Below, piece by piece: positions 11,031 through 63,015 of a stretch of DNA of 64,000 bases. The position numbers and the translations under genes are program-made. Under the pieces are notes generated by a model. That model saw only the letters and a program-made list of their open reading frames with translations, was not told where the DNA came from and did no database searches. The stretch comes from a virus (Duplodnaviria > Heunggongvirae > Uroviricota > Caudoviricetes), in the IMG/VR virus record IMGVR_UViG_3300006056_000031, positions 15,911 through 79,910 of that record; one strand, 5' to 3'. Position 1 is the first letter of the stretch, and the number at the start of each line of letters is the position of its first letter.

Positions 11031-12122
11031 ATGGAAAGAAAACTTGCAAGTATTAGAAAGATTAGTGATCTTCAACCAATCGAAGGTGCGGACCTTATAG
11101 AATTGGCAATTGTGGATGGATGGAAAGTTGTAGTAGCCAAAGAAGTTGGCCATAAGATTGGAGACTTTGTGATCTATTGCGAGGTTGATTCATTCCTCCC
11201 AATCCGCGAGGAATTTGAATTTCTTAGAAAAAGTTCGTACAGAAAGATAATCGATCAGGAGGGATTCAGACTTAAAACCATAAAATTAAGAGGACAAATT
11301 TCTCAGGGACTTATCCTTCCGCTTTCCATATTGGAAGGTGAAGAAGAGGACGAAAAACTTGGTCATCTAGAAACTCCTGATGGACCAATTTATCAATTAG
11401 GACCATATGAGTGGGCTCTTGTTATAGAGGAAGGTGCAGATGTTACCAACATGCTTGGTATTGTTAAATGGGATCCACCTATGCCTGCATGTCTGTCTGG
11501 TATAGCAAAGGGTAACTTTCCAAGCTGGGGGAGAAAAACTGACCAGGAGAGAGCACAGAATCTTGTTTCAGAGATTGGTTTGGAGCTATCAAATGATTCG
11601 AAATTTGAAATATCTATAAAATTGGATGGTACATCGATGTCAGTAGGAAAGAATGGTAGCGATATAGTAGTTTGTTCAAGAAATTTGATTCTTAATACTG
11701 AGCAGGAAGGAAATACTTTAATTGATGTTGCTAAATCTCTAGGATTGTTGGATAGAATTAGTGAATTTGGTGATATAATGATATCTGGGGAATTGTGTGG
11801 TCCTGGAATACAAGGGAATCGTGAAAAACTTGGTAAACATAAATTTTTTGTATTTGATATATTCGACGTTAGAAGTGGGGAATATATCAGTCCTGAAGAA
11901 AGAATAAAGATTGTAGAATCTTTGGGTTTAGATCATGTTCCAATTATTCATAAATCGGTAAAGCTTAATGAGATTGGATTAAATTCACTTGATGATATAT
12001 TAGCTTATGCAAACGGAGAATCCTTAAATTCGAAGATTAGAGAGGGACTAGTTTTTAAGAAGGTTGATGGATCTTTTAGCTTCAAGGCAATAAGTAACGA
12101 ATTTCTTCTTAAATTTGAGTGA
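11031..12122 (+). CDS. ATP-dependent RNA ligase (Rnl2/Rnl5-like nucleotidyltransferase) with N-terminal Myf/EMAP-like tRNA-binding OB domain
   Basis: Motif I KxDG (SIKLDGTSMSV). FVFDIFDV, ISGELCGPG and the motif-V-like EGLVFKKVDG are ordered as in the covalent nucleotidyltransferase ligases. The N-terminus (IRKISDLQPIEGADLIELAIVDGWKVVVAKEVGHKIGDFVIYCEVDSFLP) matches the tRNA-binding Myf-domain pattern. Confidence 0.7.
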   Translation: MERKLASIRKISDLQPIEGADLIELAIVDGWKVVVAKEVGHKIGDFVIYCEVDSFLPIREEFEFLRKSSYRKIIDQEGFRLKTIKLRGQISQGLILPLSILEGEEEDEKLGHLETPDGPIYQLGPYEWALVIEEGADVTNMLGIVKWDPPMPACLSGIAKGNFPSWGRKTDQERAQNLVSEIGLELSNDSKFEISIKLDGTSMSVGKNGSDIVVCSRNLILNTEQEGNTLIDVAKSLGLLDRISEFGDIMISGELCGPGIQGNREKLGKHKFFVFDIFDVRSGEYISPEERIKIVESLGLDHVPIIHKSVKLNEIGLNSLDDILAYANGESLNSKIREGLVFKKVDGSFSFKAISNEFLLKFE

Positions 12123-12159: not shown

Positions 12160-12966
12160 ATGAATAATGATTTTTATGTTTATGTTTATATTGACCCAAG
12201 AAATAATGAACCATTTTATGTAGGTAAAGGTAAAGGAAGAAGATATAAACATCATCTGAATTCTGCAAAATCTGATCTCCATTACAAGGAATCAAATAGA
12301 ATTAAAATTAATAAAATTAGGAAAATATTAGAGTCCGGAATGGAACCAATTATAGAGATATTTAGCGATCTTAGCGAGAATGATTCATTCATTATGGAGA
12401 TGAATCTGATATCCAAATATGGTAGGATGGATCTAGGAACAGGAACATTGACAAATCTATCCGAAGGTGGTGAAGGGCAATCAGGATGGATTCCTGGTGA
12501 TGACTATCGAAAAAGAATGTCAGATTCGACAAGGGGTGAAAAAAATGGAATGTTTGGAAAGAATCAAAGTAATGAGACCAGGGAAAAAATAAAAAATAAA
12601 GCATTGGGTAGGAAGCTATCCGAATCAACAAGAAAAAAAATGTCAGAGCAAAGAATTGGTGAGATGAATGGATTCTTTGGTAAAAAACACACGAATGAAT
12701 CTTTAAAAATAATATCCATCAATAGGAAGGGTAAATGTAAAGGATCCGATAATAGTAGTTCTAAAAAATTTCTATTTATTTCTCCGGAAGGATCAAATTA
12801 TATTATAAACGGTGGATTTGAAAATTTCTGCAATAATAATCAATTATCGCACGGAAGAATGAAAAGATTTATAAATTCTGGAAAAATACCAGAATGTAAC
12901 AAATCTCATAATATGACAACACAATTAACTATTAACTGCTTTGGGTGGGAAGTCAAAATAATATAA
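12160..12966 (+). CDS. GIY-YIG homing endonuclease with NUMOD3-like repeats
   Basis: N-terminal YVYVYIDPRNNEPFYVGKGKGRRYKHH...E (GIY-YIG). Three G(E/M)xNxxFGKxxxxET/SR DNA-binding repeats, as in I-TevI-type enzymes. Confidence 0.8.
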   Translation: MNNDFYVYVYIDPRNNEPFYVGKGKGRRYKHHLNSAKSDLHYKESNRIKINKIRKILESGMEPIIEIFSDLSENDSFIMEMNLISKYGRMDLGTGTLTNLSEGGEGQSGWIPGDDYRKRMSDSTRGEKNGMFGKNQSNETREKIKNKALGRKLSESTRKKMSEQRIGEMNGFFGKKHTNESLKIISINRKGKCKGSDNSSSKKFLFISPEGSNYIINGGFENFCNNNQLSHGRMKRFINSGKIPECNKSHNMTTQLTINCFGWEVKII

Positions 12967-13563: not shown

Positions 13564-13631
13564 TCGATAGATTGTATAATATAACATACGGGGAAATCCG
13601 AAAACCGTCAATAGAGTAGGAAAATCAAAAT

Positions 13632-14963: not shown

Positions 14964-15374
14964 ATGAATAAAAAACAAGAAGTTAGCGACCTGGAGGTTG
15001 CAAGAAAGATGATAAAAATACATCAAAGTGCTGCAGATAGAAAGTTAGATTTTGATTTAAGTTTAGAGACAGTTAGAAAGCTATTAACATATAAAACATG
15101 CTATTATACTGGGAAGGAATTTGAAGAGGATGGAGCTTTTTCGAGAAGCTTTGATAGAGTGGATTCATCAAAAGGTTACATAGAGGGAAATGTGGTTTCG
15201 TGCACTGTTGATATAAACGGTAAGAAAAGCAATCTAACATTCGATGAAATATCGGCTTTATATCACAAATTAAAGCCTCTAAATGATGAAAAATCAGGGG
15301 TTGAGATTGAGGTGAAGGTAAGGAAACCAAAGCCTGTAAGAAAGAAAAAAATCAAGGTTGAAAATGCCGACTAA
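14964..15374 (+). CDS. hypothetical protein (weak HNH-like core?)
   Basis: 136 aa. SFDRVDSSKGYIEGNVVSCTVDINGKK loosely resembles an HNH beta-beta-alpha core, but the catalytic His is absent. Confidence 0.4.
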   Translation: MNKKQEVSDLEVARKMIKIHQSAADRKLDFDLSLETVRKLLTYKTCYYTGKEFEEDGAFSRSFDRVDSSKGYIEGNVVSCTVDINGKKSNLTFDEISALYHKLKPLNDEKSGVEIEVKVRKPKPVRKKKIKVENAD

Positions 15375-16194
15375 AAAATTTAATGATTGGAAAGCAAACG
15401 AGTCCATAGAATGGGACTCGAAGGATGGGATTGAGGGAATTCTTAGCGATCTCCCAATGATTAAAAAATGGGACGACCACAGAGCAAAGAGTCTAAATTT
15501 TAATGGAGGTAGATACTCAATAAGTATTCTGAAGGGCTTTAAAAGCGTTGGGAATCACAAGAGCATGAGAATGAATCTCAATCTGCCAAGAGTTTTCATC
15601 GCAAAAGTTAGAGATCTGGAGAAATTTTCACATTGTCATATAACACCAGATGTTGTTGGTGACAGATTTAGCATAACCCTAATATGTGATGAAAGTTTAA
15701 AGCCGTATAGTAGCGACTCCGACGTTAAACGTAGATTTAGCGATGATGGTGAGATGAATCTGGAGGTTAGATTTAATAGCGACAGCTCGGGAGAATTTGT
15801 AAAGATATTTCAGGAGTCAGTGAATTTTATAATTGATGATATTAGGGATTCCAATTATATTTTCAATTCTGATATAAGAAGGTTTCCGAAGCTTAATGCC
15901 ATAATGAAACAGCAAATCGATGAAACATACCAAAGCATGATTGATGATCTAAGTGATGGCGATATTGAAAAAATAGAAAAAGACTATATATTTGATGATC
16001 AGCTAATCCTTGCCATGATAGGTAGAGCGATGGAGGAAGATCCTTCGTTAGTTGACTCTGTAAATTCATTTCCTGACGAATTCAAAGATATATTCTTTAA
16101 GGAATTCGGAGGAAGGGATTACAAGGCTACTAAGGATCTAGCTAGAATTATAAAGGCAGCGAAAACTGTTAAAAATGCAATGAGATTCATATGA
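15358..16194 (+). CDS. hypothetical protein
   Basis: ORF of 278 aa. Confidence 0.5.
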   Translation: MKMPTKKFNDWKANESIEWDSKDGIEGILSDLPMIKKWDDHRAKSLNFNGGRYSISILKGFKSVGNHKSMRMNLNLPRVFIAKVRDLEKFSHCHITPDVVGDRFSITLICDESLKPYSSDSDVKRRFSDDGEMNLEVRFNSDSSGEFVKIFQESVNFIIDDIRDSNYIFNSDIRRFPKLNAIMKQQIDETYQSMIDDLSDGDIEKIEKDYIFDDQLILAMIGRAMEEDPSLVDSVNSFPDEFKDIFFKEFGGRDYKATKDLARIIKAAKTVKNAMRFI

Positions 16195-17270: not shown

Positions 17271-18014
17271 ATGCCAAAATTATATAAAGTTGGAGGCTGC
17301 GTTAGGGATGCTATCCTTGGTATTGATTCCAAGGATATAGACTTCACTTTCGTGCTAGATGATCTAAACCAAACTGTCGAGGAGGGATTCCAAAAAATGG
17401 ATGATTGGATGACTGAAAAAGGATTTGAGATATTTCTAAGAGTCCCAGAGATGTACACCATCCGTGCTAGATTTCATAAAGGAGATCCAAACGAGAAACT
17501 TGTTGCTGATTTTGTGATGGCAAGAAAGGAAATGGGATATAGCGACGATAGCAGAAGACCAGTGTTGAAACTAGGTACCTTGGCCGATGATCTTATTCGT
17601 AGAGATTTTACGATCAATGCAATGGCTGAGGACTCGGAAGGGAATCTAATTGATTTATTTGGTGGACAGGATGATCTGAGAATAGGAATACTAAGAACAC
17701 CTAAGCACCCGGATATAACATTCTACGAGGATCCACTACGATTACTTAGAGCACTTAGATTCACCATAACGAAGGATCTTGTTATGCATGATGACATCTG
17801 GGAAGCTATGAAGAACCCAGAATTACTCAAAAAACTAGAACTCACTGTTAGCGGGGAAAGAATTAGGGAGGAGATTTCTAAGATGATGAAACACGACACA
17901 GTTAGAGCAATCCTGCTAATAAAAGATTGCGATGAACACATGGGATTAGGGTACAAATTATTAAGAGTGCTATTTAAAAACGGTCTTTGGCTAAAACCAA
18001 CATTTGAGCAATGA
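17271..18014 (+). CDS. tRNA nucleotidyltransferase (CCA-adding enzyme) head/neck domain, lacking the HD domain
   Basis: LYKVGGCVRDAILGIDSKDIDF corresponds to the class-II CCA enzyme GGxVRD...D.D motif. RRDFTINAMAED...EDPLRLLRALRF matches the RRD.TINA and EDPLR..R..RF motifs. At 247 aa there is no room for a C-terminal HD domain. Confidence 0.8.
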   Translation: MPKLYKVGGCVRDAILGIDSKDIDFTFVLDDLNQTVEEGFQKMDDWMTEKGFEIFLRVPEMYTIRARFHKGDPNEKLVADFVMARKEMGYSDDSRRPVLKLGTLADDLIRRDFTINAMAEDSEGNLIDLFGGQDDLRIGILRTPKHPDITFYEDPLRLLRALRFTITKDLVMHDDIWEAMKNPELLKKLELTVSGERIREEISKMMKHDTVRAILLIKDCDEHMGLGYKLLRVLFKNGLWLKPTFEQ

Positions 18015-20301: not shown

Positions 20302-20550
20302 ATGAGAATAAAAGCAATTTATAAAAAAAACCTGAAAATGCCAGAGGGAAAAGTGGCATCACAGGTTGCACATGCAGTTAAGAATCTTGGTATCACACCA
20401 ATCGATTCGGTGATAGTTGTTCTTGCAGTTTCCAATAAGAAATTTGCGGAACTTGTTGCTGAGCACCCAAACTGTTATGTACAAACCGATCTTGGTTTAA
20501 CCTGCGTGGAAAGTGGTACACGTACTGCTGCTGCATGGATAGAAGAATAA
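20302..20550 (+). CDS. peptidyl-tRNA hydrolase, PTH2 family (compact)
   Basis: LKMPEGKVASQVAHAV matches the PTH2 motif (L.MgkGKiAAQc.HAa). YVQTDLGLTCVESGTRTAAAWI corresponds to the PTH2 C-terminal motif D.G.TqI..GS.TvlAigP. Confidence 0.65.
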   Translation: MRIKAIYKKNLKMPEGKVASQVAHAVKNLGITPIDSVIVVLAVSNKKFAELVAEHPNCYVQTDLGLTCVESGTRTAAAWIEE

Positions 20551-20553
20551 ATT

Positions 20554-21000
20554 ATGACGAATAAAGTTAACATAAACAACAGAAAAGCAAAGTTTGATTA
20601 CGAGTTCATTAGAACTCTAACCGCTGGAATGCAGTTAATGGGTTCGGAAGTAAAGGCTATCAGAGATGGTAGAGTTTCATTTGTTGATTCCTACTGTTAT
20701 TTCAATGGAAAGGAACTTTTTCTGAAGAATCTAAACATTACACCAATATCCTCGACATATACACACGAGCCAAACAGAGAAAGAAAATTACTTCTTAATA
20801 GAAGTGAACTTAAAAAGTTACAGAATGACATGGATAGAGGAATGACTATAGTTCCATTCCGAATTTTTACTAATGAGAAGGGTTTGATTAAATTGGATAT
20901 TGCTCTTGCGAGGGGAAAGAAGACCTATGATAAAAAGAAAAAAATAAGGGAGGAGGATATAGAGAGGGATACGAAAAGATCCATCGCCGGGGATATATAG
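20554..21000 (+). CDS. smpB: SsrA-binding protein SmpB
   Basis: AKFDYEFIRTLTAGMQLMGSEVKAIRDGRVSFVDSYCYF...ELFL.N..ITP..........ERKLLLNRSELKKL....DRGMTIVPFRIF.NEKGLIKLDIALARGKKTYDKKKKIREEDIER is collinear with the SmpB family over its full length. Confidence 0.8.
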   Translation: MTNKVNINNRKAKFDYEFIRTLTAGMQLMGSEVKAIRDGRVSFVDSYCYFNGKELFLKNLNITPISSTYTHEPNRERKLLLNRSELKKLQNDMDRGMTIVPFRIFTNEKGLIKLDIALARGKKTYDKKKKIREEDIERDTKRSIAGDI

Positions 21001-21019: not shown

Positions 21020-22054
21020 ATGAGATACGATAAAAAATATTTGATTAATTATCTAATAGAAAATTATAGCAAAAAGAGCAAATCTGAAATAATCAATGAA
21101 CTTGGTCTTTCCTGGTCATATTTACAAAGAATAGCATCATTAAATGGTATAAAGAGGGAATTTTCGGAAAATAAAAATGTAGGTAAATATTCGATACTAA
21201 CAAACTATGATGATATAACAAGTTGTTATTGGTTGGGATTTATGCTAGCTGATGGTAACATAAGCAAAAAAAATAATATGATGCTTAATTTAGCAATAAA
21301 GGATAAAGATCATATACTCAAAATAGAAGATCATGTTGGGAAAACTAGCGTTTATTATCAAAATGATAATATAATAAGGGTTGTTTTAAATGACTCCGGA
21401 ACATTTAGAAAAATAGCATCCGATTTTGAATGGAAAACAAACAAAACTAAAAATCCACCAGTCCTACCAGAATCAATGCAGCAAGATTGTATATTTTCGA
21501 TGGTTGTTGGATTTATTGATGGCGATGGATGCATTGACGAAAGACATGGACTCGCCGTTAAATGCGATGGCTCGTGGCAAGACATGCTTAATTATTTTTA
21601 TTTGATATTAACAGGAGATTCTAAAAAATATCAAATTGATAATAATGGATATTCAATATTTCGCATAGGAAACATGATAAAACTAAAGGATATAAAGAAA
21701 AAAATTATTGAGCTTAATATTCCGGCTATGGATAGAAAGTGGGATAAAGTGGATATTAACAGGATATACAAATCGGAGAAAGAATCTATTATTTCAGAGA
21801 TGCTAAATAATGGAAATAATATGAATGCAATATTGGAAAAAACAGGATTTAGTAAAACCTTATATTATTCAGTTGCAAATAAGAAAGGTGTAAATATAAG
21901 AAAAAATAAAATATCCAATGATCAATTCATGTCAATAGTAACAATGTACAACAATGGAATTAATCCGTCAGAGATGTCCAGATCTATTGAATTGAGTATA
22001 TCCACAATATATAGGCAGATTAAAAAATATAAAGCAACTAAAAGAAGTTTATAA
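21020..22054 (+). CDS. LAGLIDADG homing endonuclease (two-motif, monomeric type)
   Basis: Two LAGLIDADG motifs: CYWLGFMLADGNIS and FSMVVGFIDGDGCID. Confidence 0.75.
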   Translation: MRYDKKYLINYLIENYSKKSKSEIINELGLSWSYLQRIASLNGIKREFSENKNVGKYSILTNYDDITSCYWLGFMLADGNISKKNNMMLNLAIKDKDHILKIEDHVGKTSVYYQNDNIIRVVLNDSGTFRKIASDFEWKTNKTKNPPVLPESMQQDCIFSMVVGFIDGDGCIDERHGLAVKCDGSWQDMLNYFYLILTGDSKKYQIDNNGYSIFRIGNMIKLKDIKKKIIELNIPAMDRKWDKVDINRIYKSEKESIISEMLNNGNNMNAILEKTGFSKTLYYSVANKKGVNIRKNKISNDQFMSIVTMYNNGINPSEMSRSIELSISTIYRQIKKYKATKRSL

Positions 22055-25912: not shown

Positions 25913-26161
25913 ATGGCAAAGAATAAGGAACAGGCGGAGAGATACAAAGCAGAAGGACTTAGACGAATGCTTGCTAGAAAAAAGCAAAGGTTCGAAAAGT
26001 ACAGAACACTTGCTATCGAAGCTAGTAATTTAGGAATTCCTTTAGCAGGTGCAAGACTTGGAGGATCCTGGCCAGACCCAGATTCACCAACAGGATATTC
26101 ACAGAAATGCTCATATGAGGTATGGGGAACATGTCAATCACCTTGTAATGGTGATTGTTAA
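25913..26161 (+). CDS. hypothetical basic protein
   Basis: 82 aa, Arg/Lys-rich at the N-terminus and Cys-rich at the C-terminus. Downstream of promoter box 25885-25893. Confidence 0.45.
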   Translation: MAKNKEQAERYKAEGLRRMLARKKQRFEKYRTLAIEASNLGIPLAGARLGGSWPDPDSPTGYSQKCSYEVWGTCQSPCNGDC

Positions 26162-26168
26162 TAAGATT

Positions 26169-26225
26169 TGGGATATAGCTTAGTGGTAGAGCTTTACAGC
26201 GGAGGTTCAATTCCTTCTATCCCGA
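26169..26225 (+). tRNA. tRNA-like element lacking an anticodon arm (about 57 nt; acceptor + D arm + T arm only); possible tRNA pseudogene or anticodon-less tRNA mimic
   Basis: The acceptor stem TGGGATA/TATCCCG, a canonical D arm (GCTTAGTGGTAGAGC) and a T arm (GGAGG-TTCAATT-CCTTC) are contiguous. Only 8 nt lie between the D and T arms. Confidence 0.4.
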
Positions 26226-26424
26226 CAAAGCAGTTTTTATTGTGCATCTCCATCGGACGAGAACATTGTTTTAGATTTAAAAACAAGGTTAATAGGACCG
26301 GGTAGTTTAAAAGTTTTCCTAGCCTTAAGGAAAAGTAAGGGTGGTTTTGCAGATGACAGTTTCCTAACCTAGTGGAAAAGTCGGTATAATAGGGAAATCG
26401 GTCGGCTTTAACCGATTCCCAACA

Positions 26425-26548
26425 GGGGGAATAGACCAACGGTATGGTACATCTCTAACTTACATCATAGATAGAATCTATGACGTCTTCACACAAAGGC
26501 GAAGTTTAGCTGATTCAAGTGTCACAGGTTCGATTCCTGTTTCCCCCA
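26425..26548 (+). tRNA. tRNA-like gene, oversized (about 124 nt) between D arm and T arm
   Basis: Perfect acceptor pairing GGGGGAA/TTCCCCC. T arm ACAGG-TTCGATT-CCTGT at 26524-26540. A 3-bp D stem of the type-II kind. The interior contains a 7-bp/3-nt-loop hairpin (26466-26482), but no canonical 5+7+5 anticodon arm could be placed by eye. Confidence 0.4.
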
Positions 26549-26735
26549 CTAGCCACGTCACTGTAAGCTGCAGTGATAACTGGACACGAAATAAGGTGGT
26601 TCCGCGGATCACTAACGAAATCGTCTGAGGTAGAGTCCGAGTCCAGGGTTAAAACATAAAGAGTCTACTACATAACGAGGCGCCAAATTAATCTCGACAT
26701 GTACTGTCTGGCAGGTCAGACTAGGCTCTTTAAAC

Positions 26736-26812
26736 GATTGGAAATAGCTTGATTGTGGCGCGACGCCTATTGGGAGCAGTGGTAAAAATGGGTTCGAATC
26801 CTGTTCCAATCA
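26736..26812 (+). tRNA. tRNA gene (77 nt; isotype undetermined)
   Basis: Acceptor GATTGGA/TCCAATC. T arm ATGGG-TTCGAAT-CCTGT at 26788-26804. Total length is canonical. The D and anticodon arms are not cleanly assignable by eye. Confidence 0.55.
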
Positions 26813-26896
26813 CGAAACACGTAAAACGCAAACGCACGGGCCCTAGATGCATAAGGTGAGGCGCACCCCGTATACTGGATGACCTCTGTTTTTAAC

Positions 26897-27003
26897 GACC
26901 AGAATGCAGGGATGGAACCCTGCACATTAGAAAGTTCCTATAAAGCAATGGTTGATGTCGTGGAGCTTTGACATTAACTGCGGGTTCGATTCCTGCACTG
27001 GTC
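26897..27003 (+). tRNA. tRNA-like gene, oversized (about 107 nt)
   Basis: Acceptor GACCAGA/ACTGGTC (6 of 7 bp). T arm GCGGG-TTCGATT-CCTGC at 26979-26995. A 7-bp interior hairpin at 26903-26922. Confidence 0.35.
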
Positions 27004-27016
27004 ACAAATGCAAATG

Positions 27017-27083
27017 GGGAGATATGCTTAAAGTCACGTGGAGGTAAAGCAATAAGATTGGAGGTTCGAGTCCTTCTCTCTCC
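27017..27083 (+). tRNA. tRNA-like gene (short, about 67 nt)
   Basis: T arm GGAGG-TTCGAGT-CCTTC at 27059-27075. 3' acceptor TCTCTCC pairs with GGAGATA at 27017-27023 (6 of 7 bp). Confidence 0.35.
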
Positions 27084-27298
27084 ACAAAAAGAAAATGTTC
27101 TTCGTGGTGAATGAACGGTATTTTATAGGATGGACGCATTGGTAATAGTTGGGTAAGGAGAGAACTGCAGTGGGCTGCTGCACTACACCTCAAGAAAAAT
27201 CGCAAGATAAAACTGCCAATTTAGATAGAAAGAACTAAGCCATCCAATAAAATGCCAAAGAAACAATTTTAAAATAATTGTTATTGTTATTTTTTTAA

Positions 27299-27340
27299 TC
27301 CGAATTATTATCATATATTTGTGTGATAATTCGGATTTTT
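27299..27340 (+). promoter_or_regulatory. phage promoter (-7 box 27313-27320) embedded in the loop of a 12-bp inverted repeat
   Basis: AATCCGAATTAT-tatcatatatttgtgtg-ATAATTCGGATT. The stem arms flank the TATATTTG box. Confidence 0.5.
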
Positions 27341-27357
27341 AATTTAAAAATAAACTC

Positions 27358-28897: not shown

Positions 28898-29432
28898 TTT
28901 ACATATGGAAACATTAGCTTACATAGTATTAGCAATATTTGCAATAGTGATTATAATCACCATTAGATCTTTTCTTAAAAGAAGATCAAGAAAATCTGAG
29001 TATAAGGATTGGAAGGTTGGTGATAAGTTGATTATGGATCAATTTAATAGGGACACTGCATACGAAGTTCTAAGAAAAAAGGGTAAAAGTTACGCAAAGC
29101 TTTGTGGTTGGACGGATGATGATGTTTATGTCGATGTTCACGACGGGAATGTTTATAAGATAAAATGGAAGGAAGTAAAATTGAATAAATCTGCATACTG
29201 GAGAAGAAATTACGAGGAAGCTAAGAAGGTCATGGGAACTGATCCGTCATTTAGTGCTGATATAGAAGAACCAACAAGCTCATCATCAATCTCACCCAAA
29301 GGAACTATAGACGGAAAACCGATAGAGTTACTAACTGAGATTGAGTGCCAGGTTTATTTAAAAAATGCAATCGAATCCGAGGATTATAAAGCTGCGGAAG
29401 CGATAAGAAAAAGAATGGAAAATTTCAGATAA
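28887..29432 (+). CDS. hypothetical membrane-anchored protein
   Basis: 181 aa. N-terminal TM segment LAYIVLAIFAIVIIITI. Downstream of promoter box 28883-28891. Confidence 0.5.
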   Translation: MYKILHMETLAYIVLAIFAIVIIITIRSFLKRRSRKSEYKDWKVGDKLIMDQFNRDTAYEVLRKKGKSYAKLCGWTDDDVYVDVHDGNVYKIKWKEVKLNKSAYWRRNYEEAKKVMGTDPSFSADIEEPTSSSSISPKGTIDGKPIELLTEIECQVYLKNAIESEDYKAAEAIRKRMENFR

Positions 29433-29467
29433 TCACAGATAAGACTTTAATACTAAAACATCGAAGA

Positions 29468-29860
29468 ATGAATAAATTATTTGTTAGTTTGGAATTAGCA
29501 ACCTCGCTTAAGGAATTTGAATTTGATGGTGAGTGTATCTGTTTCTATAAAGGGGGAAGACTATCGGTAACTGATCAACATTGGGGATCAGGAATTAGCG
29601 GGATATCTAAAGCACTGGGATATAGAATCGATGATCTAATACTTGCACCAACACACCAGCAGGTAACTGATTGGCTGAGAGATGAGCATGGGATTATCAT
29701 TGTGGTTATGCCATTTCTAATGGAAGATAATGTCATTACCTATGAGTACACAAACTACACAGATAAGGACCAGGACGAAATAGATCATGGCGATGGTCCC
29801 TACGAAGATTACTACGAAGCACTAAACGCAGCAATAAAATCAGCAATATCATGCATTTAA
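29468..29860 (+). CDS. hypothetical protein, paralog family A (divergent)
   Basis: 130 aa. LATSLKEFEFDGECICFY and LAPTHQQVTDWL match the family A motifs. Confidence 0.5.
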   Translation: MNKLFVSLELATSLKEFEFDGECICFYKGGRLSVTDQHWGSGISGISKALGYRIDDLILAPTHQQVTDWLRDEHGIIIVVMPFLMEDNVITYEYTNYTDKDQDEIDHGDGPYEDYYEALNAAIKSAISCI

Positions 29861-30865: not shown

Positions 30866-31272
30866 AAGGCAGAGTAATATCAATATTAGCTTATAATAAA
30901 TTCGCATTTGGTGATCAGACTGTTTCACAGTTTGTTCTATTCGAATGTAAATGGTTATTCTCCATCATCTTCTTTTATTTTCATAAAAGCGATGGCGCAC
31001 AGGATAGATTTCACACACATGCATTTAATGCATTCTCAGTGAAACTATTTGGAAGATATGATGAGTTTATTCTTCTTGACGAAAAAACTGGAGAATATGA
31101 AGTTAGACCAAGGGTGAAGGTTTTCCAATACTTTCCTAGAGATTCATATCACAAAATAGGAAATGGAACTGGATGCATGACAATATTGTTTTCCGGACCA
31201 TGGAAAAAGACATGGAAGGAGTATATCGATGGAGAAATAATTAAATATAACTGGAACAGAAAAAAATTATGA
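30850..31272 (+). CDS. hypothetical protein
   Basis: ORF of 140 aa. Confidence 0.45.
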   Translation: MGYAMKGRVISILAYNKFAFGDQTVSQFVLFECKWLFSIIFFYFHKSDGAQDRFHTHAFNAFSVKLFGRYDEFILLDEKTGEYEVRPRVKVFQYFPRDSYHKIGNGTGCMTILFSGPWKKTWKEYIDGEIIKYNWNRKKL

Positions 31273-34626: not shown

Positions 34627-35062
34627 ACATATGACAATAGCAATAGCTCAGGCTGATGTTCCAAATCTAATAGGTAACATCTACACAAAAGAGGCTATAA
34701 CTAAAATGTATGAGAATGTCAAGGAAGCGATAGATAAAGGATTCTTTGGTGGTGAGCTAATACATGATGCTAGCGATAGGACCTACGAAACCACGCTTGA
34801 TCTATCAAAGGTGACTCATCAAGTATCAAAGGTGGATGTGGTTGATGGGTTTCTTGTTGCTGATGTTGAGTTTATGGATACCCATCATGGCGAAATAGCT
34901 AGAACCCTAGTTGAATCTGCGGCTGGTGTCATAAGACCGACCATTGCTGGTACTCTTGATCCAATAACAAAAGAGATTACAGTGAGCAACGTTATAAGTT
35001 TTGATATAATACAATATCACGATGATTTTAGATTACATATAACTTGGAAACAAATAAAATAA
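34613..35062 (+). CDS. hypothetical protein
   Basis: ORF of 149 aa. Confidence 0.5.
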   Translation: MSSDKHMTIAIAQADVPNLIGNIYTKEAITKMYENVKEAIDKGFFGGELIHDASDRTYETTLDLSKVTHQVSKVDVVDGFLVADVEFMDTHHGEIARTLVESAAGVIRPTIAGTLDPITKEITVSNVISFDIIQYHDDFRLHITWKQIK

Positions 35063-35063
35063 T

Positions 35064-35381
35064 ATGGCAGATAAAATATTCATATTCATCCTGCTAATAC
35101 ACTTCCTAGCAGATTTTGCGTTACAGACCGACGACCAGGCAAAGGGTAAAAGCACGGATACAAAATGGTTAACGTATCACGTTGCTGTTTATTCGATTAT
35201 ATGGTTGATGGCATCTTGGTTCTATTTTGGTGATTTTAGACAAGCAGTATTCTTTGCTACCGTGACATTCATTTGTCACTGGTGTACAGATTTTCTTACA
35301 AGCAGAATTGGTAAACCTTTCTGGGATATGAGCCATTGGTTCTTAATAAATTATTGGAAAAATATATGGAATCCGATATAG
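35064..35381 (+). CDS. hypothetical membrane protein
   Basis: 105 aa with three hydrophobic segments. Confidence 0.45.
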   Translation: MADKIFIFILLIHFLADFALQTDDQAKGKSTDTKWLTYHVAVYSIIWLMASWFYFGDFRQAVFFATVTFICHWCTDFLTSRIGKPFWDMSHWFLINYWKNIWNPI

Positions 35382-61372: not shown

Positions 61373-61403
61373 TGGTCCTTCAACTTAATACGATTCGGCA
61401 ATC

Positions 61404-61802
61404 GTGTCAGCCTCTAAAACTGATGTAACGTGTTCGATGCACGGTGGGATCACAAAAAACATAACGATGAAAGAATATTCATGGAAAACAGCTCTAGGAG
61501 AAACTAAAAAATTCTCGGAAATAGATCATCAGCACCTATCGAATATACTTTGGTTCAGAGAGATTTTAACAGGAGCTAATTTTTGTAACTGTGAGGTTCA
61601 AAGGCTTTTAAATTCTGAACTAAAAAGAAGATTCAAAGGGGAGAGATTGCCATGGAAGCCATTACCAATTCCAAATGAGATAGATTGGATAAGAAAGGCG
61701 GCTTACATAAACAGTAAAGGTGAAATAATAGGAACAATGAAAACACCATCACATTACGGTAGAGTTATTGGATCTATTGCTCATATAGAAAAACTCAATT
61801 AG
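61404..61802 (+). CDS. hypothetical protein
   Basis: ORF of 132 aa. Confidence 0.45.
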   Translation: MSASKTDVTCSMHGGITKNITMKEYSWKTALGETKKFSEIDHQHLSNILWFREILTGANFCNCEVQRLLNSELKRRFKGERLPWKPLPIPNEIDWIRKAAYINSKGEIIGTMKTPSHYGRVIGSIAHIEKLN

Positions 61803-61881
61803 CGGAGAGTAGGGGAAACCCAAAAATAGCTAAGCTGTGTAAAGCGACAGAACTGATAATCTGTTAGAAGCTAGGTTGGAT

Positions 61882-62030
61882 GGCGGAAAGCTTATAATGG
61901 AAGAAATTCTATTACAGCAAGGAAGACGCTATATTAGAGAAAGGACGCACTGGATTTGGAAACCCAGTTAGCGACAGTGGAAGAATCAACGCTCTAATTA
62001 CCATTGTGGGTTCGAATCCCACTTCAGCCA
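61882..62030 (+). tRNA. tRNA-like gene, strongly oversized (about 149 nt), tentative
   Basis: T arm GTGGG-TTCGAAT-CCCAC at 62006-62022. 3' acceptor TTCAGCC pairs with GGCGGAA at 61882-61888 (6 of 7 bp). The interior contains an anticodon-like hairpin near 61847-61866 outside this span, so the boundaries are uncertain. Confidence 0.3.
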
Positions 62031-62050
62031 CTAATAAAAATATAAAAATA

Positions 62051-62557
62051 ATGAAAAAAGCATTGATTGCATTAGCTTTAATATTAGCGATAAATTCAAT
62101 ATATTCGCAAGATAATAAAGTAATTATTGAAAATTGCACCAACAAGTCTCAACTTTATGGACCAAGTGGTGTAATCTGTTCAAATATTGATAGAACAAAG
62201 TGGTTCACATTAAAACCAAACTACTTATTAGATGGTGATAGATTGTCTTGCCATGGCCTTATAGTAATTAAATCAAACATTGGTGGTCCGAGTAAAAAAT
62301 GCCAATTGGTATTTTCATTTAGCGATGGAAGTAAATTAAGACTGAAACCTGAGGAGGAATCAAAAACTGGGAACATTTTTTATTTTAAATTAACCGAATT
62401 AGAATTCATAATTTTAAAAAGTAAAAAAATTAATCACGCTAGATACATTAACGGAATTGATAATATCTCGTTCCAATATAAAATGGGTGAGGAAGAAAAA
62501 AATTACTATGTAAATTTGTTTACTAATTATCATATTCAAAAAATGTACTGTGAATAA
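62051..62557 (+). CDS. hypothetical secreted protein
   Basis: Start moved to MKKALIALALILAINSIYSQD (signal peptide). The longer ORF from 62006 would overlap the tRNA-like T arm. Confidence 0.45.
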   Translation: MKKALIALALILAINSIYSQDNKVIIENCTNKSQLYGPSGVICSNIDRTKWFTLKPNYLLDGDRLSCHGLIVIKSNIGGPSKKCQLVFSFSDGSKLRLKPEEESKTGNIFYFKLTELEFIILKSKKINHARYINGIDNISFQYKMGEEEKNYYVNLFTNYHIQKMYCE

Positions 62558-62559
62558 AT

Positions 62560-62662
62560 GGGTAGTTGGCGAATTGGCTAACGCAAAGGGTTAGTTTATA
62601 TCGGTAACAAATCAAGGTATAAATGAGTCCCTCATACGCAGGTTCGAATCCTGTACTACCCA
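62560..62662 (+). tRNA. type-II (Leu/Ser-like) tRNA-like gene with enlarged anticodon region (103 nt)
   Basis: Acceptor GGGTAGT/ACTACCC. D arm TGGCGAATTGGCTAACGCA is nearly identical in layout to bacterial tRNA-Leu. Variable-arm hairpin ATGAG-TCC-CTCAT. T arm GCAGG-TTCGAAT-CCTGT. The anticodon region is about 18 nt longer than canonical and no 5/7/5 arm fits. Confidence 0.5.
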
Positions 62663-62906
62663 CAAATCAGCGATGTTAACTACTCTGTGGTATCTACGGA
62701 GTGCTAGGAGTAAACCTAGAAACTTGCTTAGGTAAGTTAAGGATTAAATGAGTTACAGTTCGGATTTGAACCTTAAAAAAGCTAATGCTTTAATGACATG
62801 TAGATTCAGAATAGCTTATACTATTTAGGTACCTGAACCATTCAAAGAAGTCTTAGCAGATGATGATATTTTTTAGCCAAGGCGGAAATTTTTTGATTCA
62901 CTATTT

Positions 62907-62999
62907 GGTCAGATTGGACATAAGGTCGGTTCGAGTCCGATGGAAGGTCATGGATGTCGGGTAGCTCCCTGTAGGAAGGTTCGATTCCTTCCCTGACTG
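62907..62999 (+). tRNA. tRNA-like gene (about 93 nt) with duplicated T-arm-like hairpins
   Basis: T arm GGAAGG-TTCGATT-CCTTCC at 62974-62992. 3' CTGACT pairs with GGTCAG at 62907-62912. A second T-arm-like hairpin GTCGG-TTCGAGT-CCGAT sits at 62926-62942. Confidence 0.35.
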
Positions 63000-63015
63000 C
63001 GGCGCTTTTTCGTAC

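What the first reader, a model, noticed from the sequence alone, without database searches (positions are those of the whole stretch)
20554..21000. Phage-encoded SmpB without an obvious tmRNA partner in the window
SmpB functions only with tmRNA (SsrA) in trans-translation. A phage copy implies either hijacking of host tmRNA or a phage tmRNA elsewhere. The 26.2-27.3 kb RNA-gene block contains tRNA-like 5' and 3' halves separated by long structured spacers; for example 26226..26424 holds a 9-bp hairpin at 26390-26420 and a GCA-initiated short frame. I could not identify a canonical tag-peptide reading frame ending in ...LAA-stop.
Basis: partly seen in the sequence, partly recalled or inferred. 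Interest (0 to 1): 0.6.

Follow-up and report, generated by a model that had tools for sequence, protein, structure and literature searches.

The report
Phage SmpB with tRNA-like partners
A giant bacteriophage carries a genuine copy of the ribosome-rescue protein SmpB but no recognisable tmRNA in this window; phage SmpB is already known, but here it is genetically linked to small tRNA-like RNAs that lack an anticodon arm and could be an unconventional partner.

Summary
The ORF at 20554..21000(+) is a full-length SmpB. It scores 161-165 bits, above curated cut-offs, and keeps the C-terminal tail. It follows a miniature Pth2-like gene, within a module that also holds an RNA ligase and a CCA-adding-type nucleotidyltransferase. 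The window comes from a ~430 kb megaphage whose host is probably in the Bacteroidota. A near-identical SmpB from this clade is already annotated in Al-Shayeb 2020.

ARAGORN and Rfam find no tmRNA in the 64 kb, even at E<=10. They find none in about 120 kb of related loci either. Only 2 of 76 other phage smpB loci have a tmRNA within 10 kb.

The 26.2-27.3 kb block does not hold tRNA halves. It holds complete tRNA-like units, and two of them, A and E, lack the anticodon arm. E has the alanine identity pair G3:U70 plus A73.

A belongs to a covarying family that starts 2-7 nt after a small Cys-rich ORF. In a clade whose SmpB is 50% identical to this one, smpB overlaps the start of that ORF.

The most likely partner is host tmRNA. 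A phage tmRNA elsewhere in the genome, or a TLD-only partner of the kind seen in mycobacteriophage DS6A, remain open. No conserved tag reading frame exists.

The parts
20554..21000 (+). smpB: a full-length SsrA-binding protein of 148 aa, with the C-terminal tail motif GKKTYDKKKKIREEDIERDTKR.
   Evidence: Pfam 161 bits and NCBIfam equivalogs 165 and 159 bits. PDB phmmer E=1.8e-38 over residues 4-141. PHROG 6791. Homologues at 78-93% identity lie on phage contigs of 118-434 kb.
20302..20550 (+). Miniature Pth2-like gene (82 aa), ending 3 nt before the smpB start codon. The pair is conserved in relatives.
   Evidence: Pfam PTH2 at 25.1 bits (cut-off 23), covering the N-terminal motif only. Both the GKxAxQVAHA and D-G-T..E-GT-T motifs align in order with solved Pth2 structures 1xty and 1rlk, with the middle deleted; the second segment is not significant on its own. 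phrog_31188. The same gene sits before smpB in L003, L014, L016 and L017.
11031..12122 (+). RNA ligase (PHA02142 OB-fold plus RNA_ligase domains); part of the RNA-repair and translation module around smpB.
   Evidence: Pfam 120.9 and 95.8 bits. Conserved upstream of smpB in relatives.
17271..18014 (+). Nucleotidyltransferase of the CCA-adding / poly(A) polymerase family (head domain).
   Evidence: Pfam PolyA_pol at 74 bits. A 245-aa orthologue lies upstream of smpB in L011, L014, L015, L017, L019 and L164.
25913..26161 (+). Small basic Cys-rich ORF (82 aa). It has a long N-terminal basic helix and a nearly invariant C-terminus, GSWPDPxSPTGYSQKCSYxxWGTCQSPCNGDC. Element A follows it in every locus fetched.
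   Evidence: 20 homologues, with an invariant C-terminal motif. AF2 helix 5-40, with block-mean pLDDT 91-95 over residues 11-40. No Pfam or PHROG family. The A-type RNA starts 2-7 nt after its stop codon in ten distinct loci; in L168 an extra ORF is inserted between them.
26169..26225 (+). Element A: a 57-nt tRNA-like RNA with acceptor stem, canonical D arm, 8-nt linker and T arm, but no anticodon arm. It has G3:C70, U1-G72 and A73, and CCA is not encoded.
   Evidence: Rfam tRNA at 43.6 bits, with the anticodon arm deleted (15 model positions matched by 1 nt). Model R1 scores family members 67-83 bits against <=47 bits for ordinary tRNAs. All 7 acceptor pairs covary across 14 sequences; 97.8% of cells are paired, and 0/500 shuffles reach the observed values.
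27016..27084 (+). Element E: a 69-nt tRNA-like RNA without an anticodon arm, with an enlarged D loop. It has G3:U70 and A73, the alanine identity that tmRNA also uses. It occurs only in the window and L002.
   Evidence: Rfam tRNA at 29.3 bits, with 17 anticodon-arm model positions matched by 3 nt. Acceptor GGGGAGA/UCUCUCC with 3:70 = G:U. R1 scores 35.9 bits. Absent from L001, L003, L015 and L164.
26226..26424 (+). S1: a conserved non-coding stretch after A. It is also found after A in the L014/L017 clade. It has no conserved reading frame.
   Evidence: Alignment and RNAalifold. The consensus fold has only weak support (covariation term unfavourable). By eye in the alignment, the arms UUUCCU/AGGAAA (window) read UUUCUA/UAGAAA (L014).
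26425..26548 (+). Element B: a 124-nt tRNA-like unit with about 67 nt in place of the anticodon arm.
   Evidence: Rfam tRNA at 31.4 bits. Homologues in L011, L015 and L164 have a canonical D arm, and their anticodon stem is extended by an extra helix.
26549..26735 (+). S2: a conserved multi-hairpin spacer RNA.
   Evidence: 85-89% identity to L001, L011 (first part only) and L015.
26736..27089 (+). The C-D-E module (with a few flanking bases, about 359 nt; indel boundaries ~26731 and ~27089), present or absent as a unit. It contains C 26736-26812, the tag-like frame 26828-26854 (GCA AAC GCA CGG GCC CTA GAT GCA TAA = ANARALDA*), D 26897-27004 and E.
   Evidence: Present in the window and L002 only. 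The D acceptor stem shows a compensatory A2:U71 to G2:C71 change in L002. The weak tmRNA_permuted hit (12 bits, E=9.9) is not significant.
27093..27260 (+). Z: the most conserved non-coding domain of the block. It is closed by a long helix (27117-27133 with 27240-27256) and is always the last element before the terminator.
   Evidence: Nearly invariant in the window, L001, L002, L003 and L015. L003 has compensatory changes in the closing helix. A 1-nt indel in L001 rules out coding.
27292..27345 (+). Terminator-like hairpin. It also carries a TAnnTTTG motif of the kind used by Bacteroidota promoters.
   Evidence: Read directly from the sequence. The same motif lies upstream of the block in L002, L014 and L015.

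Best explanation
The ORF is a functional, canonical SmpB carried by a ~430 kb megaphage whose host is probably in the Bacteroidota.

It is co-expressed with a miniature Pth2-like peptidyl-tRNA hydrolase. Both sit in a conserved 'translation damage-control' module that also holds RNA ligase(s), a CCA-adding-type nucleotidyltransferase and, in relatives, PNKP.

The most likely mechanism is ordinary trans-translation using the host's tmRNA. Phage SmpB would bind the tRNA-like domain of host SsrA, deliver it with EF-Tu to ribosomes stalled on broken mRNAs, and use its C-terminal tail to probe the empty mRNA channel. This would keep ribosomes available while host nucleases, or the phage's own, damage RNA. 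Pth2, the ligase and the CCA enzyme would recycle peptidyl-tRNA and repair tRNA.

Shown: the protein's identity and integrity, the gene neighbourhood, and the absence of tmRNA in the window and in the flanks of relatives. Inferred: use of host tmRNA, the purpose of the module, and the host phylum.
For: - **SmpB identity.** Equivalog-level profile matches.
- **Integrity.** Full-length alignment to solved SmpB structures, including the GKKxYDKR tail needed for trans-translation.
- **Conservation.** Homologues run at 78-93%, then 67%, then about 60% identity across many phage contigs, with 34 invariant columns. This argues for purifying selection.
- **Closest cellular relatives.** Bacteroidia SmpB at about 57% identity. 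TAnnTTTG promoter-like motifs flank the RNA block. The protein should therefore fit a Bacteroidota tmRNA.
- **Conserved neighbourhood.** RNA ligase, PolyA_pol, Pth2-like gene and SmpB.
- **No tmRNA found.** None in the window, none in the +-10 kb flanks of L001-L007, none by ARAGORN in the further relatives L011-L021, and none by ARAGORN or Rfam in the 120 kb of cassette and relative loci. None lies within +-20 kb of smpB in Lak-A1 or the 735 kb phage. Only 2 of 76 further phage smpB loci carry one. Most phage SmpBs therefore appear to do without a linked tmRNA.
- **Literature.** Huge phages are reported to carry SmpB (PMC7162821).
Against: - No host genome or host tmRNA was examined. Binding is inferred only from conservation.
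- About 85% of the phage genome is unseen, so a phage tmRNA is not excluded. L188 and L227 show that such pairs exist.
- Synteny of smpB with the Cys-rich ORF and A-type RNA cassette in three clades hints at a phage-encoded RNA partner instead of, or in addition to, host tmRNA.
- At 57-60% identity to cellular SmpB, the protein is not especially close to any host.
Confidence: 0.5

Rival explanations
1. SmpB works with phage-encoded TLD-only RNAs. These are the anticodon-arm-less tRNA-like RNAs A and E, possibly acting together with the small Cys-rich protein.

One version is tag-less ribosome rescue. Aminoacyl mini-tRNA plus SmpB enters the empty A site and accepts the nascent chain. The peptidyl-RNA is then hydrolysed by the adjacent mini-Pth2.

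The other version is that these RNAs titrate or redirect SmpB to modulate host trans-translation. This has been shown for TLD-only molecules of the kind encoded by mycobacteriophage DS6A.
For: - A and E have exactly the TLD architecture: acceptor stem, D region and T arm, with no anticodon arm.
- E carries G3:U70 and A73.
- A is a real, covarying family.
- The cassette of Cys-rich ORF plus A lies 0-6 kb downstream of smpB in three clades whose SmpBs are only 50-67% identical to each other. In L165, L168 and L185, smpB overlaps the start of the small ORF.
- SmpB is otherwise very rare in phage contigs. A degenerate-pattern scan of 2.9 million contigs (not exhaustive) recovered 79 loci, and none of 120 control loci has one.
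- There is precedent. The DS6A TLD-only tmRNA and CDS-less organelle tmRNAs co-occur with SmpB (PMC4131195, PMC11915505).
- Other phage contigs hold 58-64 nt mini RNAs with G3:U70: L109, L136 and L151.
- A CCA-adding-type enzyme and a Pth2-like hydrolase are in the same module.
Against: - None of the 14 A-type sequences has G3:U70, and 1:72 is unpaired in 5 of 14. Alanylation, the universal tmRNA property, is therefore not expected for A.
- E occurs only in the window and L002.
- 73 of the 76 further phage smpB loci have neither an A-type RNA nor a tmRNA nearby.
- L002, L011 and L015 have SmpB but no A within 10 kb.
- Several cassette-bearing contigs show no SmpB in the flanks available.
- A has a normal tRNA D arm, not the tmRNA D loop. 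Rfam scores it as tRNA.
- CCA is not encoded.
- A may instead serve the small ORF, for example as an RNase P/Z processing signal at the mRNA 3' end.
Confidence: 0.2
2. The phage has its own canonical tmRNA somewhere in the ~370 kb of genome outside this window. The pair is then complete and unremarkable.
For: - Phage tmRNAs exist: phage G, Bxz1-like mycobacteriophages (PMC4131195) and Mar_Mega_1 (PMC9723777).
- Al-Shayeb 2020 reports both tmRNA and SmpB in huge phages.
- Two phage smpB loci, L188 and L227, carry a standard tmRNA 5-6 kb from smpB, with tag GNVYNNMEVAGLLATSKVAA.
Against: - Where phage tmRNA and smpB co-occur, they are close together and sit among tRNAs.
- Here, 20 kb upstream and 43 kb downstream of smpB, including two RNA-gene blocks, contain none. 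The flanks of eight related lineages contain none either.
- The supplementary GenBank files of PMC7162821 that could be searched contain no tmRNA feature.
Confidence: 0.2
3. The phage SmpB has a role independent of any tmRNA. It might act as a general RNA-binding or ribosome-binding factor, as an inhibitor of host rescue, or simply as a recently acquired passenger gene.
For: Most phage smpB loci lack any linked tmRNA-like RNA. A homing endonuclease gene sits right next to it, which shows the locus is subject to gene flux.
Against: The core and the tail motif are strongly conserved across phage lineages down to 50% identity. The gene keeps a stable position beside the Pth2-like gene in a translation-related module. 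Neither is expected of a passenger or of a protein that has changed function.
Confidence: 0.1

Closest known systems
Bacterial SmpB-tmRNA trans-translation system
   Same: The protein is an equivalog-level SmpB with an intact core and C-terminal tail.
   Different: No tmRNA gene accompanies it in the 64 kb window or in the flanks of relatives. It is carried by a virus, and it is paired with a Pth2-like gene instead of the usual cellular neighbours.
SmpB genes of huge phages (Al-Shayeb et al. 2020, PMC7162821; Lak megaphages; PHROG 6791)
   Same: The gene is of the same kind and has the same kind of setting, near tRNA genes and translation genes. A supplementary GenBank file of that paper annotates an SmpB whose visible first 44 residues nearly match L003's (ALT_09252017_20_scaffold_111).
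   Different: In Lak-A1 and the 735 kb phage, smpB lies beside arrays of ordinary tRNAs. Here the neighbouring RNA genes are almost all aberrant tRNA-like units that ARAGORN does not call.
TLD-only (CDS-less) tmRNA: mycobacteriophage DS6A, Mallomonadaceae plastids, jakobid mitochondria (PMC4131195, PMC11915505)
   Same: Elements A and E are about 57-69 nt, with an acceptor stem and T arm, no anticodon arm and no tag frame. E has G3:U70 and A73. They lie in a genome that also encodes SmpB. In mitochondria, CDS-less tmRNA likewise co-occurs with SmpB.
   Different: A and E have a tRNA-type D stem-loop rather than the tmRNA D loop. Rfam scores them as tRNA. CCA is not encoded. The A family never has G3:U70. 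A is tightly coupled to a small protein gene, which has not been described for TLD-only tmRNAs.
Phage tRNA-repair modules (T4 Pnkp/Rnl type) and phage CCA-adding enzymes
   Same: RNA ligases, PNKP (in relatives) and a CCA-adding-type enzyme are clustered near tRNA-like genes.
   Different: SmpB and a Pth2-like hydrolase are added here. They extend the repair theme from tRNA to stalled ribosomes. That functional grouping is inferred, not shown.

Membership tests
SmpB (PF01668 / TIGR00086 / NF003843) | Profile match above the curated cut-offs over the whole domain. | tested here: met
   161.4 bits (cut-off 27), 164.7 bits (cut-off 130) and 159.2 bits (cut-off 119.1), covering residues 3-144.
SmpB (PF01668 / TIGR00086 / NF003843) | C-terminal basic tail with the G-K-K-x-[YH]-D-K-R motif, required for A-site accommodation. 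| tested here: met
   ARGKKTYDKKKKIREEDIERD aligns with ARGKKKYDKREAIKKREMER of 7ljp and with T. thermophilus SmpB. It is conserved in phage relatives.
SmpB (PF01668 / TIGR00086 / NF003843) | A cognate tmRNA gene in the same genome. | tested here: inconclusive
   None in the 64 kb window or in the flanks of relatives. About 85% of the genome was not available.
SmpB (PF01668 / TIGR00086 / NF003843) | Binds the tmRNA TLD and supports trans-translation. | not testable with these tools
   Needs biochemistry or genetics.
tmRNA (standard RF00023, permuted RF04321, mitochondrial RF02544) | Detected by ARAGORN or by the covariance models. | tested here: not met
   ARAGORN finds 0. There are no Rfam hits at gathering thresholds, or at E<=10 over the whole window. 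The only fragments appear in a 1.6 kb sub-search: a T-arm match of 10.7 bits and a tmRNA_permuted match of 12 bits with E=9.9.
tmRNA (standard RF00023, permuted RF04321, mitochondrial RF02544) | 5' and 3' ends (or two pieces) form an alanine-type tRNA-like domain that encloses an mRNA-like domain. | tested here: not met
   Every T arm pairs with an acceptor strand 57-157 nt upstream, forming a closed unit. The match between E's 3' strand and GGAGAGA in Z is not conserved, because Z occurs without E in L001, L003 and L015.
tmRNA (standard RF00023, permuted RF04321, mitochondrial RF02544) | A conserved tag reading frame with a resume codon. | tested here: not met
   ANARALDA* (26828-26854) occurs only in the window and L002. 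In L002 its first codon is ACA. It lies outside any TLD. Frames in S1 and Z are broken or not conserved in relatives.
TLD-only / CDS-less tmRNA (DS6A type) | A short RNA with an acceptor stem and T arm, no anticodon arm and no CDS. | tested here: met
   A is 57 nt and E is 69 nt. The A family structure is supported by covariation.
TLD-only / CDS-less tmRNA (DS6A type) | The G3:U70 alanine identity pair. | tested here: not met
   E has G3:U70 and A73. The conserved A family has GC 9, AU 3, CG 1 and UA 1 at position 3:70, and never G-U. The feature is therefore met for E only.
TLD-only / CDS-less tmRNA (DS6A type) | Closer in sequence to tmRNA than to tRNA (tmRNA-type D loop, encoded CCA). | tested here: not met
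   The best Rfam family within the clan is tRNA. The D arm is the canonical UAGCUCAGUUGGUUAGAGC. The 3' trailer is ACAA, not CCA.
Pth2 peptidyl-tRNA hydrolase (PF01981) | A full-length profile match with the catalytic motifs. | tested here: inconclusive
   25.1 bits, just above the cut-off of 23, for residues 7-26 only. It falls below the NCBIfam cut-offs. The C-terminal D-G-T..E-GT-T segment aligns in the right order but is not significant, and about 35 residues in the middle are missing.

The most novel reading that the evidence does not exclude
A phage-specific three-part module consists of SmpB, a small basic Cys-rich protein, and a 57-59 nt tRNA-like RNA that lacks the anticodon arm. In this window it also includes the alanine-type variant E and a mini-Pth2. 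The module would form a tag-less ribosome-rescue or trans-translation-modulating ribonucleoprotein. It would be a tRNA-derived, convergent counterpart of TLD-only tmRNA.
Probability: 0.2. Interest if true: 0.8.

Novelty: new member of a known kind. Interest (0 to 1): 0.45.

Why it matters
Taken alone, the SmpB gene adds one more member to a documented class of translation genes in huge phages, and it matters little.

It would matter if the linked anticodon-arm-less tRNA-like RNAs prove to be its partners. That would be a second, independently evolved route to a tmRNA-like rescue particle, derived from a tRNA rather than from SsrA. It would also give a tractable model for the unexplained CDS-less tmRNAs of organelles and of phage DS6A. 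Finally, it would show how giant phages keep ribosomes running, or manipulate host quality control, when RNA is under attack.

Whatever the partner turns out to be, two results stand on their own as testable observations:
- the tightly conserved cassette of a small Cys-rich ORF followed by the tRNA-like RNA;
- an RNA operon built from aberrant tRNA-like units.

Tried and rejected
1. **Tag frame ANARALDA* (26828-26854), preceded by UAAAAC as in E. coli.** Rejected. It lies after a closed tRNA-like unit, not inside a TLD. It exists only in two ~97% identical genomes, and L002 changes the resume codon. The C-like element in L011 has no such frame downstream.

2. **Permuted tmRNA formed by E's 3' acceptor strand and GGAGAGA at 27156 in Z.** Rejected. 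Z is conserved without E in L001, L003 and L015. A 7-mer match is expected by chance at roughly the 10% level.

3. **Frames in Z and S1.** These were a GTG-initiated frame of about 23 codons (GTG at 27168) downstream of the AAGGAG motif, and GCA-initiated frames. They are broken by indels or not conserved, and the substitutions are not synonymous-biased.

4. **S2 as a minimal RNase P RNA with a P4-like AGAGUCC...GGCUCU pairing.** Rejected. The 3' strand pairs better with a nearby AAAGAGUCUA, and no Rfam RNase P hit appears even at E<=10.

5. **Relaxed ARAGORN settings (-ps80, -ps70).** These gave only noise: 5 'tmRNAp' calls and 105-409 'tRNA' calls.

7. **Megablast of the region, and tblastn of the small protein, against GenBank phages.** No match.

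8. **S1 consensus fold.** Only weak support, and nothing tmRNA-like.

9. **Test of A-type enrichment in smpB loci from IMG/VR.** 3 of 79 smpB loci against 0 of 100 control loci is not significant taken that way. The association is visible only when starting from the cassette.
Full report
**1. The observation**

The ORF 20554..21000(+) encodes 148 aa. It matches Pfam SmpB at 161.4 bits and the two NCBIfam SmpB equivalogs at 164.7 and 159.2 bits. All three scores are far above the curated cut-offs.

phmmer against PDB sequences aligns residues 4-141 with solved SmpB (7ljp, E=1.8e-38). The alignment includes the C-terminal ARGKKxYDKK... tail. The protein also matches PHROG 6791. The gene is real and intact.

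ARAGORN finds no tRNA or tmRNA in the 64 kb (local -m run). Rfam at gathering thresholds gives three 'tRNA' hits and nothing else. At E<=10 over the whole window, no tmRNA family appears. 'SmpB without an obvious tmRNA in the window' is therefore confirmed.

**2. What the window is**

Nearly all ORFs lie on the + strand, and GC is about 35%. SmpB relatives at 89-93% identity lie on IMG/VR contigs of 434, 430 and 119 kb. Further relatives at 79% and 67% lie on contigs of 386 and 403 kb.

The nearest GenBank phages are the 735 kb LR756501 (51%) and the Lak megaphages (47-48%). The nearest named cellular homologues are Bacteroidia SmpBs at about 57%. TAnnTTTG motifs flank the RNA block. The host is therefore probably in the Bacteroidota, which is an inference.

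Al-Shayeb et al. 2020 state that huge phages carry tmRNAs and SmpB. One of their supplementary GenBank files annotates an SmpB whose visible first 44 residues nearly match that of L003. The gene class, and this clade's SmpB, are therefore already published.

**3. Neighbourhood**

Just upstream, ending 3 nt before the smpB start, is an 82-aa Pth2-like ORF. Both Pth2 sequence motifs align in order with solved Pth2, with the middle of the fold missing. The second segment is not significant alone.

The pair is conserved in L003, L014, L016 and L017. Further upstream are an RNA ligase, a GIY-YIG homing endonuclease and a PolyA_pol-family (CCA-adding-type) nucleotidyltransferase. Relatives add PNKP and a second ligase. 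A LAGLIDADG-like gene follows smpB in the window and in L164 but not in L003 or L014.

In Lak-A1 and LR756501, smpB lies 5-15 kb from large arrays of ordinary tRNAs. No tmRNA lies within +-20 kb.

**4. The RNA block at 26.17-27.35 kb**

The block does not hold tRNA halves. Five T arms each pair with an acceptor strand 57-124 nt upstream. This gives:
- A: 26169-26225
- B: 26425-26548
- C: 26736-26812
- D: 26897-27004
- E: 27016-27084

Between and after them are conserved non-coding stretches S1, S2 and Z, followed by a terminator-like hairpin.

Relatives carry different subsets:
- L002 lacks A.
- L001, L015 and L164 lack the ~359-nt C-D-E module.
- L003 has A, other units, a D-like unit and Z.
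- L014 has A, S1 and D.

Acceptor stems of A and D show compensatory changes. Z is closed by a long helix that has compensatory changes in L003.

A second block at 61.37-63.0 kb holds more such units. It also holds a 240-nt element homologous to part of L003's first block.

**5. Is a tmRNA hidden there?**

I tested the obvious candidates, and none fits.
- The frame GCA AAC GCA CGG GCC CTA GAT GCA TAA looks tag-like. However, it sits after a closed unit, exists only in the window and L002, and has a changed first codon in L002.
- Frames in S1 and Z are not conserved or are broken by indels.
- The complementarity between E's 3' strand and Z cannot be general, because Z occurs without E.
- S1 has no well-supported fold.

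ARAGORN and Rfam also find no tmRNA in about 120 kb of loci from related and cassette-bearing phages. Among 76 further phage smpB loci from IMG/VR, only L188 and L227 have a standard tmRNA within 10 kb.

**6. Anticodon-arm-less tRNA-like RNAs**

Rfam aligns A to the tRNA model with the 15 inner positions of the anticodon arm matched by a single nucleotide. In E, the 17 arm positions are matched by 3 nt. E has G3:U70 and A73, the alanine identity set that tmRNA also uses.

A pattern scan and a covariance model (R1) recovered A-type elements from 14 distinct loci, scoring 67-83 bits. Ordinary tRNAs score <=47 bits with the same model.

All seven acceptor pairs covary, 97.8% of cells are paired, and no shuffle or slid control comes close. 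Position 3:70 is never G-U in the A family, and 1:72 is unpaired in 5 of 14 sequences.

In 100 unrelated tRNA-bearing phage loci, no element reached 60 bits. A simple geometric scan did find three other mini-RNAs with G3:U70 there, in L109, L136 and L151.

**7. A conserved cassette and its link to smpB**

Element A starts 2-7 nt after the stop codon of a small ORF (window 25913-26161) in every fetched locus that has this ORF, except L168. This ORF encodes a basic N-terminal helix and a nearly invariant C-terminus...SPTGYSQKCSY..G.CQSPCNGDC. In L168 an extra ORF is inserted between the two. The protein has no Pfam or PHROG family and no match in GenBank phages.

The distance from smpB to the cassette varies by clade:

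| Clade | Distance downstream of smpB |
|---|---|
| Window clade | 5 kb (1 kb in L003) |
| L014/L017 clade | 3.3 kb |
| L165/L168/L185 clade (SmpB 50% identical to the window's) | smpB overlaps the start of the small ORF |

Other cassette-bearing contigs show no SmpB in the flanks available. Most phage smpB loci have no cassette. The association therefore runs one way, from cassette to SmpB, and it is suggestive rather than proven.

**8. Comparison with what is known**

TLD-only tmRNAs are documented. [quoted passage not shown] Such a molecule, whether or not it can be charged, strongly inhibits tmRNA, perhaps by titrating SmpB (PMC4131195). CDS-less tmRNAs of mitochondria and some plastids co-occur with SmpB (PMC11915505).

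A and E share that architecture. They differ in having a tRNA-type D arm, no encoded CCA and, for A, no alanine identity. They therefore fail the membership test for tmRNA, although they may work in a similar way.

**9. Verdict**

The finding is correct as an observation. As stated, it is ordinary: a new member of the known class of phage SmpB genes.

| Explanation | Confidence |
|---|---|
| Canonical SmpB in a translation/RNA damage-control module, acting on host tmRNA | 0.5 |
| Phage tmRNA elsewhere in the genome | 0.2 |
| Partnership with the phage's own TLD-like RNAs | 0.2 |
| tmRNA-independent role | 0.1 |

The first three are not mutually exclusive. The third is the novel reading and the one worth testing.

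Noticed in passing
window 25913-26225; also L001, L003, L014, L017, L029/L035, L030/L038, L163-L168, L185: A conserved two-part cassette. A small basic ORF with an invariant Cys-rich C-terminus (…SPTGYSQKCSY..G.CQSPCNGDC*) is followed 2-7 nt later by a 57-59 nt tRNA-like RNA that lacks the anticodon arm. The protein has no known family. Neither the protein (tblastn) nor this region's DNA (megablast) matches any GenBank phage record.
   Followed up: yes
window 26136-26161: In the window, the last codons of the small ORF (CAA TCA CCT TGT AAT GGT GAT TGT) form a perfect 8-bp hairpin, CAATCACC/GGTGATTG. L165 shows an A:T to G:C change made by two synonymous substitutions, but L014 pairs poorly. 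It is unclear whether an RNA structure adds to the protein constraint.
   Followed up: partly
window 61374-63000: A second block of aberrant tRNA-like units. I is 61374-61452, F is 61874-62030 (157 nt), G is 62560-62662 (103 nt, Rfam tRNA 48 bits, with an extended anticodon arm) and H is 62907-62999 (two T-arm hairpins inside one acceptor stem). None is called by ARAGORN.
   Followed up: partly
window 61374-61452: Unit I has a 5-bp stem with the loop CCUCUAAAA. This could present CUA as an amber-suppressor anticodon, as in recoded Lak-type phages. The D region is atypical and the call is unverified. ORFs in this window read well under the standard code.
   Followed up: no
window 62663-62905 and L003 11668-11905: A ~240-nt non-coding element is shared between the window's second RNA block and L003's first block. 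Hairpins are maintained despite loop changes. Its function is unknown, and it shows that modules move between the RNA operons.
   Followed up: no
window 27093-27260: Domain Z is the most conserved RNA of the block. It is nearly invariant even in L003 and L015. It is closed by a 16-bp helix (one unpaired position on each strand) with compensatory changes. It contains an AAGGAG motif and a 5-bp hairpin whose 7-nt loop (UGGGCUG) varies. It matches no Rfam family.
   Followed up: partly
window 26731-27089: The C-D-E stretch (~359 nt) is present or absent as one unit among genomes that are otherwise about 90-97% identical. tRNA-like units also recombine at their T arms: the 5' part of B differs between the window and L011/L015, while the T arm and S2 are homologous.
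   Followed up: partly
window 13588-13622; L003 4026-4060; L014 2800-2834: This is the DUF805b RNA motif (RF02914). It scores 32.2 bits in the window, just under the gathering score of 35.6. It scores 36.5 bits in L003 and 48.5 bits in L014, both above it.
   Followed up: no
window 21020-22054 and 12160-12966: Homing-endonuclease-like genes lie next to smpB and next to the RNA ligase. The first is LAGLIDADG-like with weak support. The second is GIY-YIG plus NUMOD3. The first is absent from L003 and L014, so it is a recent insertion.
   Followed up: partly
L022 (Lak-A1) 30963-31117 and 34986-35172; L023 (LR756501) 29417-29706: Other megaphages hold tRNA genes with long insertions in the anticodon region. 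In Lak-A1 the inserts themselves contain a mini tRNA-like hairpin unit. LR756501 has a 290-nt unit whose acceptor arms are identical to those of the tRNA-Leu(CAA) gene at L023 25404-25488. Its ~200-nt insert might be a group I intron; that was not tested.
   Followed up: no
L188 16523-16942 and L227 6451-6857: Two phage contigs carry a standard tmRNA (tag GNVYNNMEVAGLLATSKVAA) 5-6 kb from a phage smpB that is 48-53% identical to the window's. In L188 it lies among 28 tRNAs. This shows that complete phage pairs exist.
   Followed up: partly
L109 7487-7550, L151 8796-8854 (minus strand), L136 4023-4080 (minus strand): These are TLD-only-like mini RNAs of 58-64 nt with G3:U70 and an encoded CCA, in unrelated phage contigs. 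L151 has a tmRNA-type GGGUUCGAC D loop, while L136 has a tRNA-type D arm like element E. No SmpB lies in the short flanks.
   Followed up: partly
L166 10259-11947; L165 11366-12253; L168 3103-3969: Cassette-bearing phages also encode a TROVE (Ro60-like) protein (L166) or Thg1 (tRNA-His guanylyltransferase) and YqeY (L165, L168), next to large tRNA arrays. These are further RNA-quality-control genes in the same neighbourhoods.
   Followed up: no
L011 13874-15127: A TnpB / Cas12f-like (OrfB_IS605) gene is inserted directly after the RNA block in one relative. Two more odd tRNA-like units follow it, at 15160-15227 and 15305-15382.
   Followed up: no
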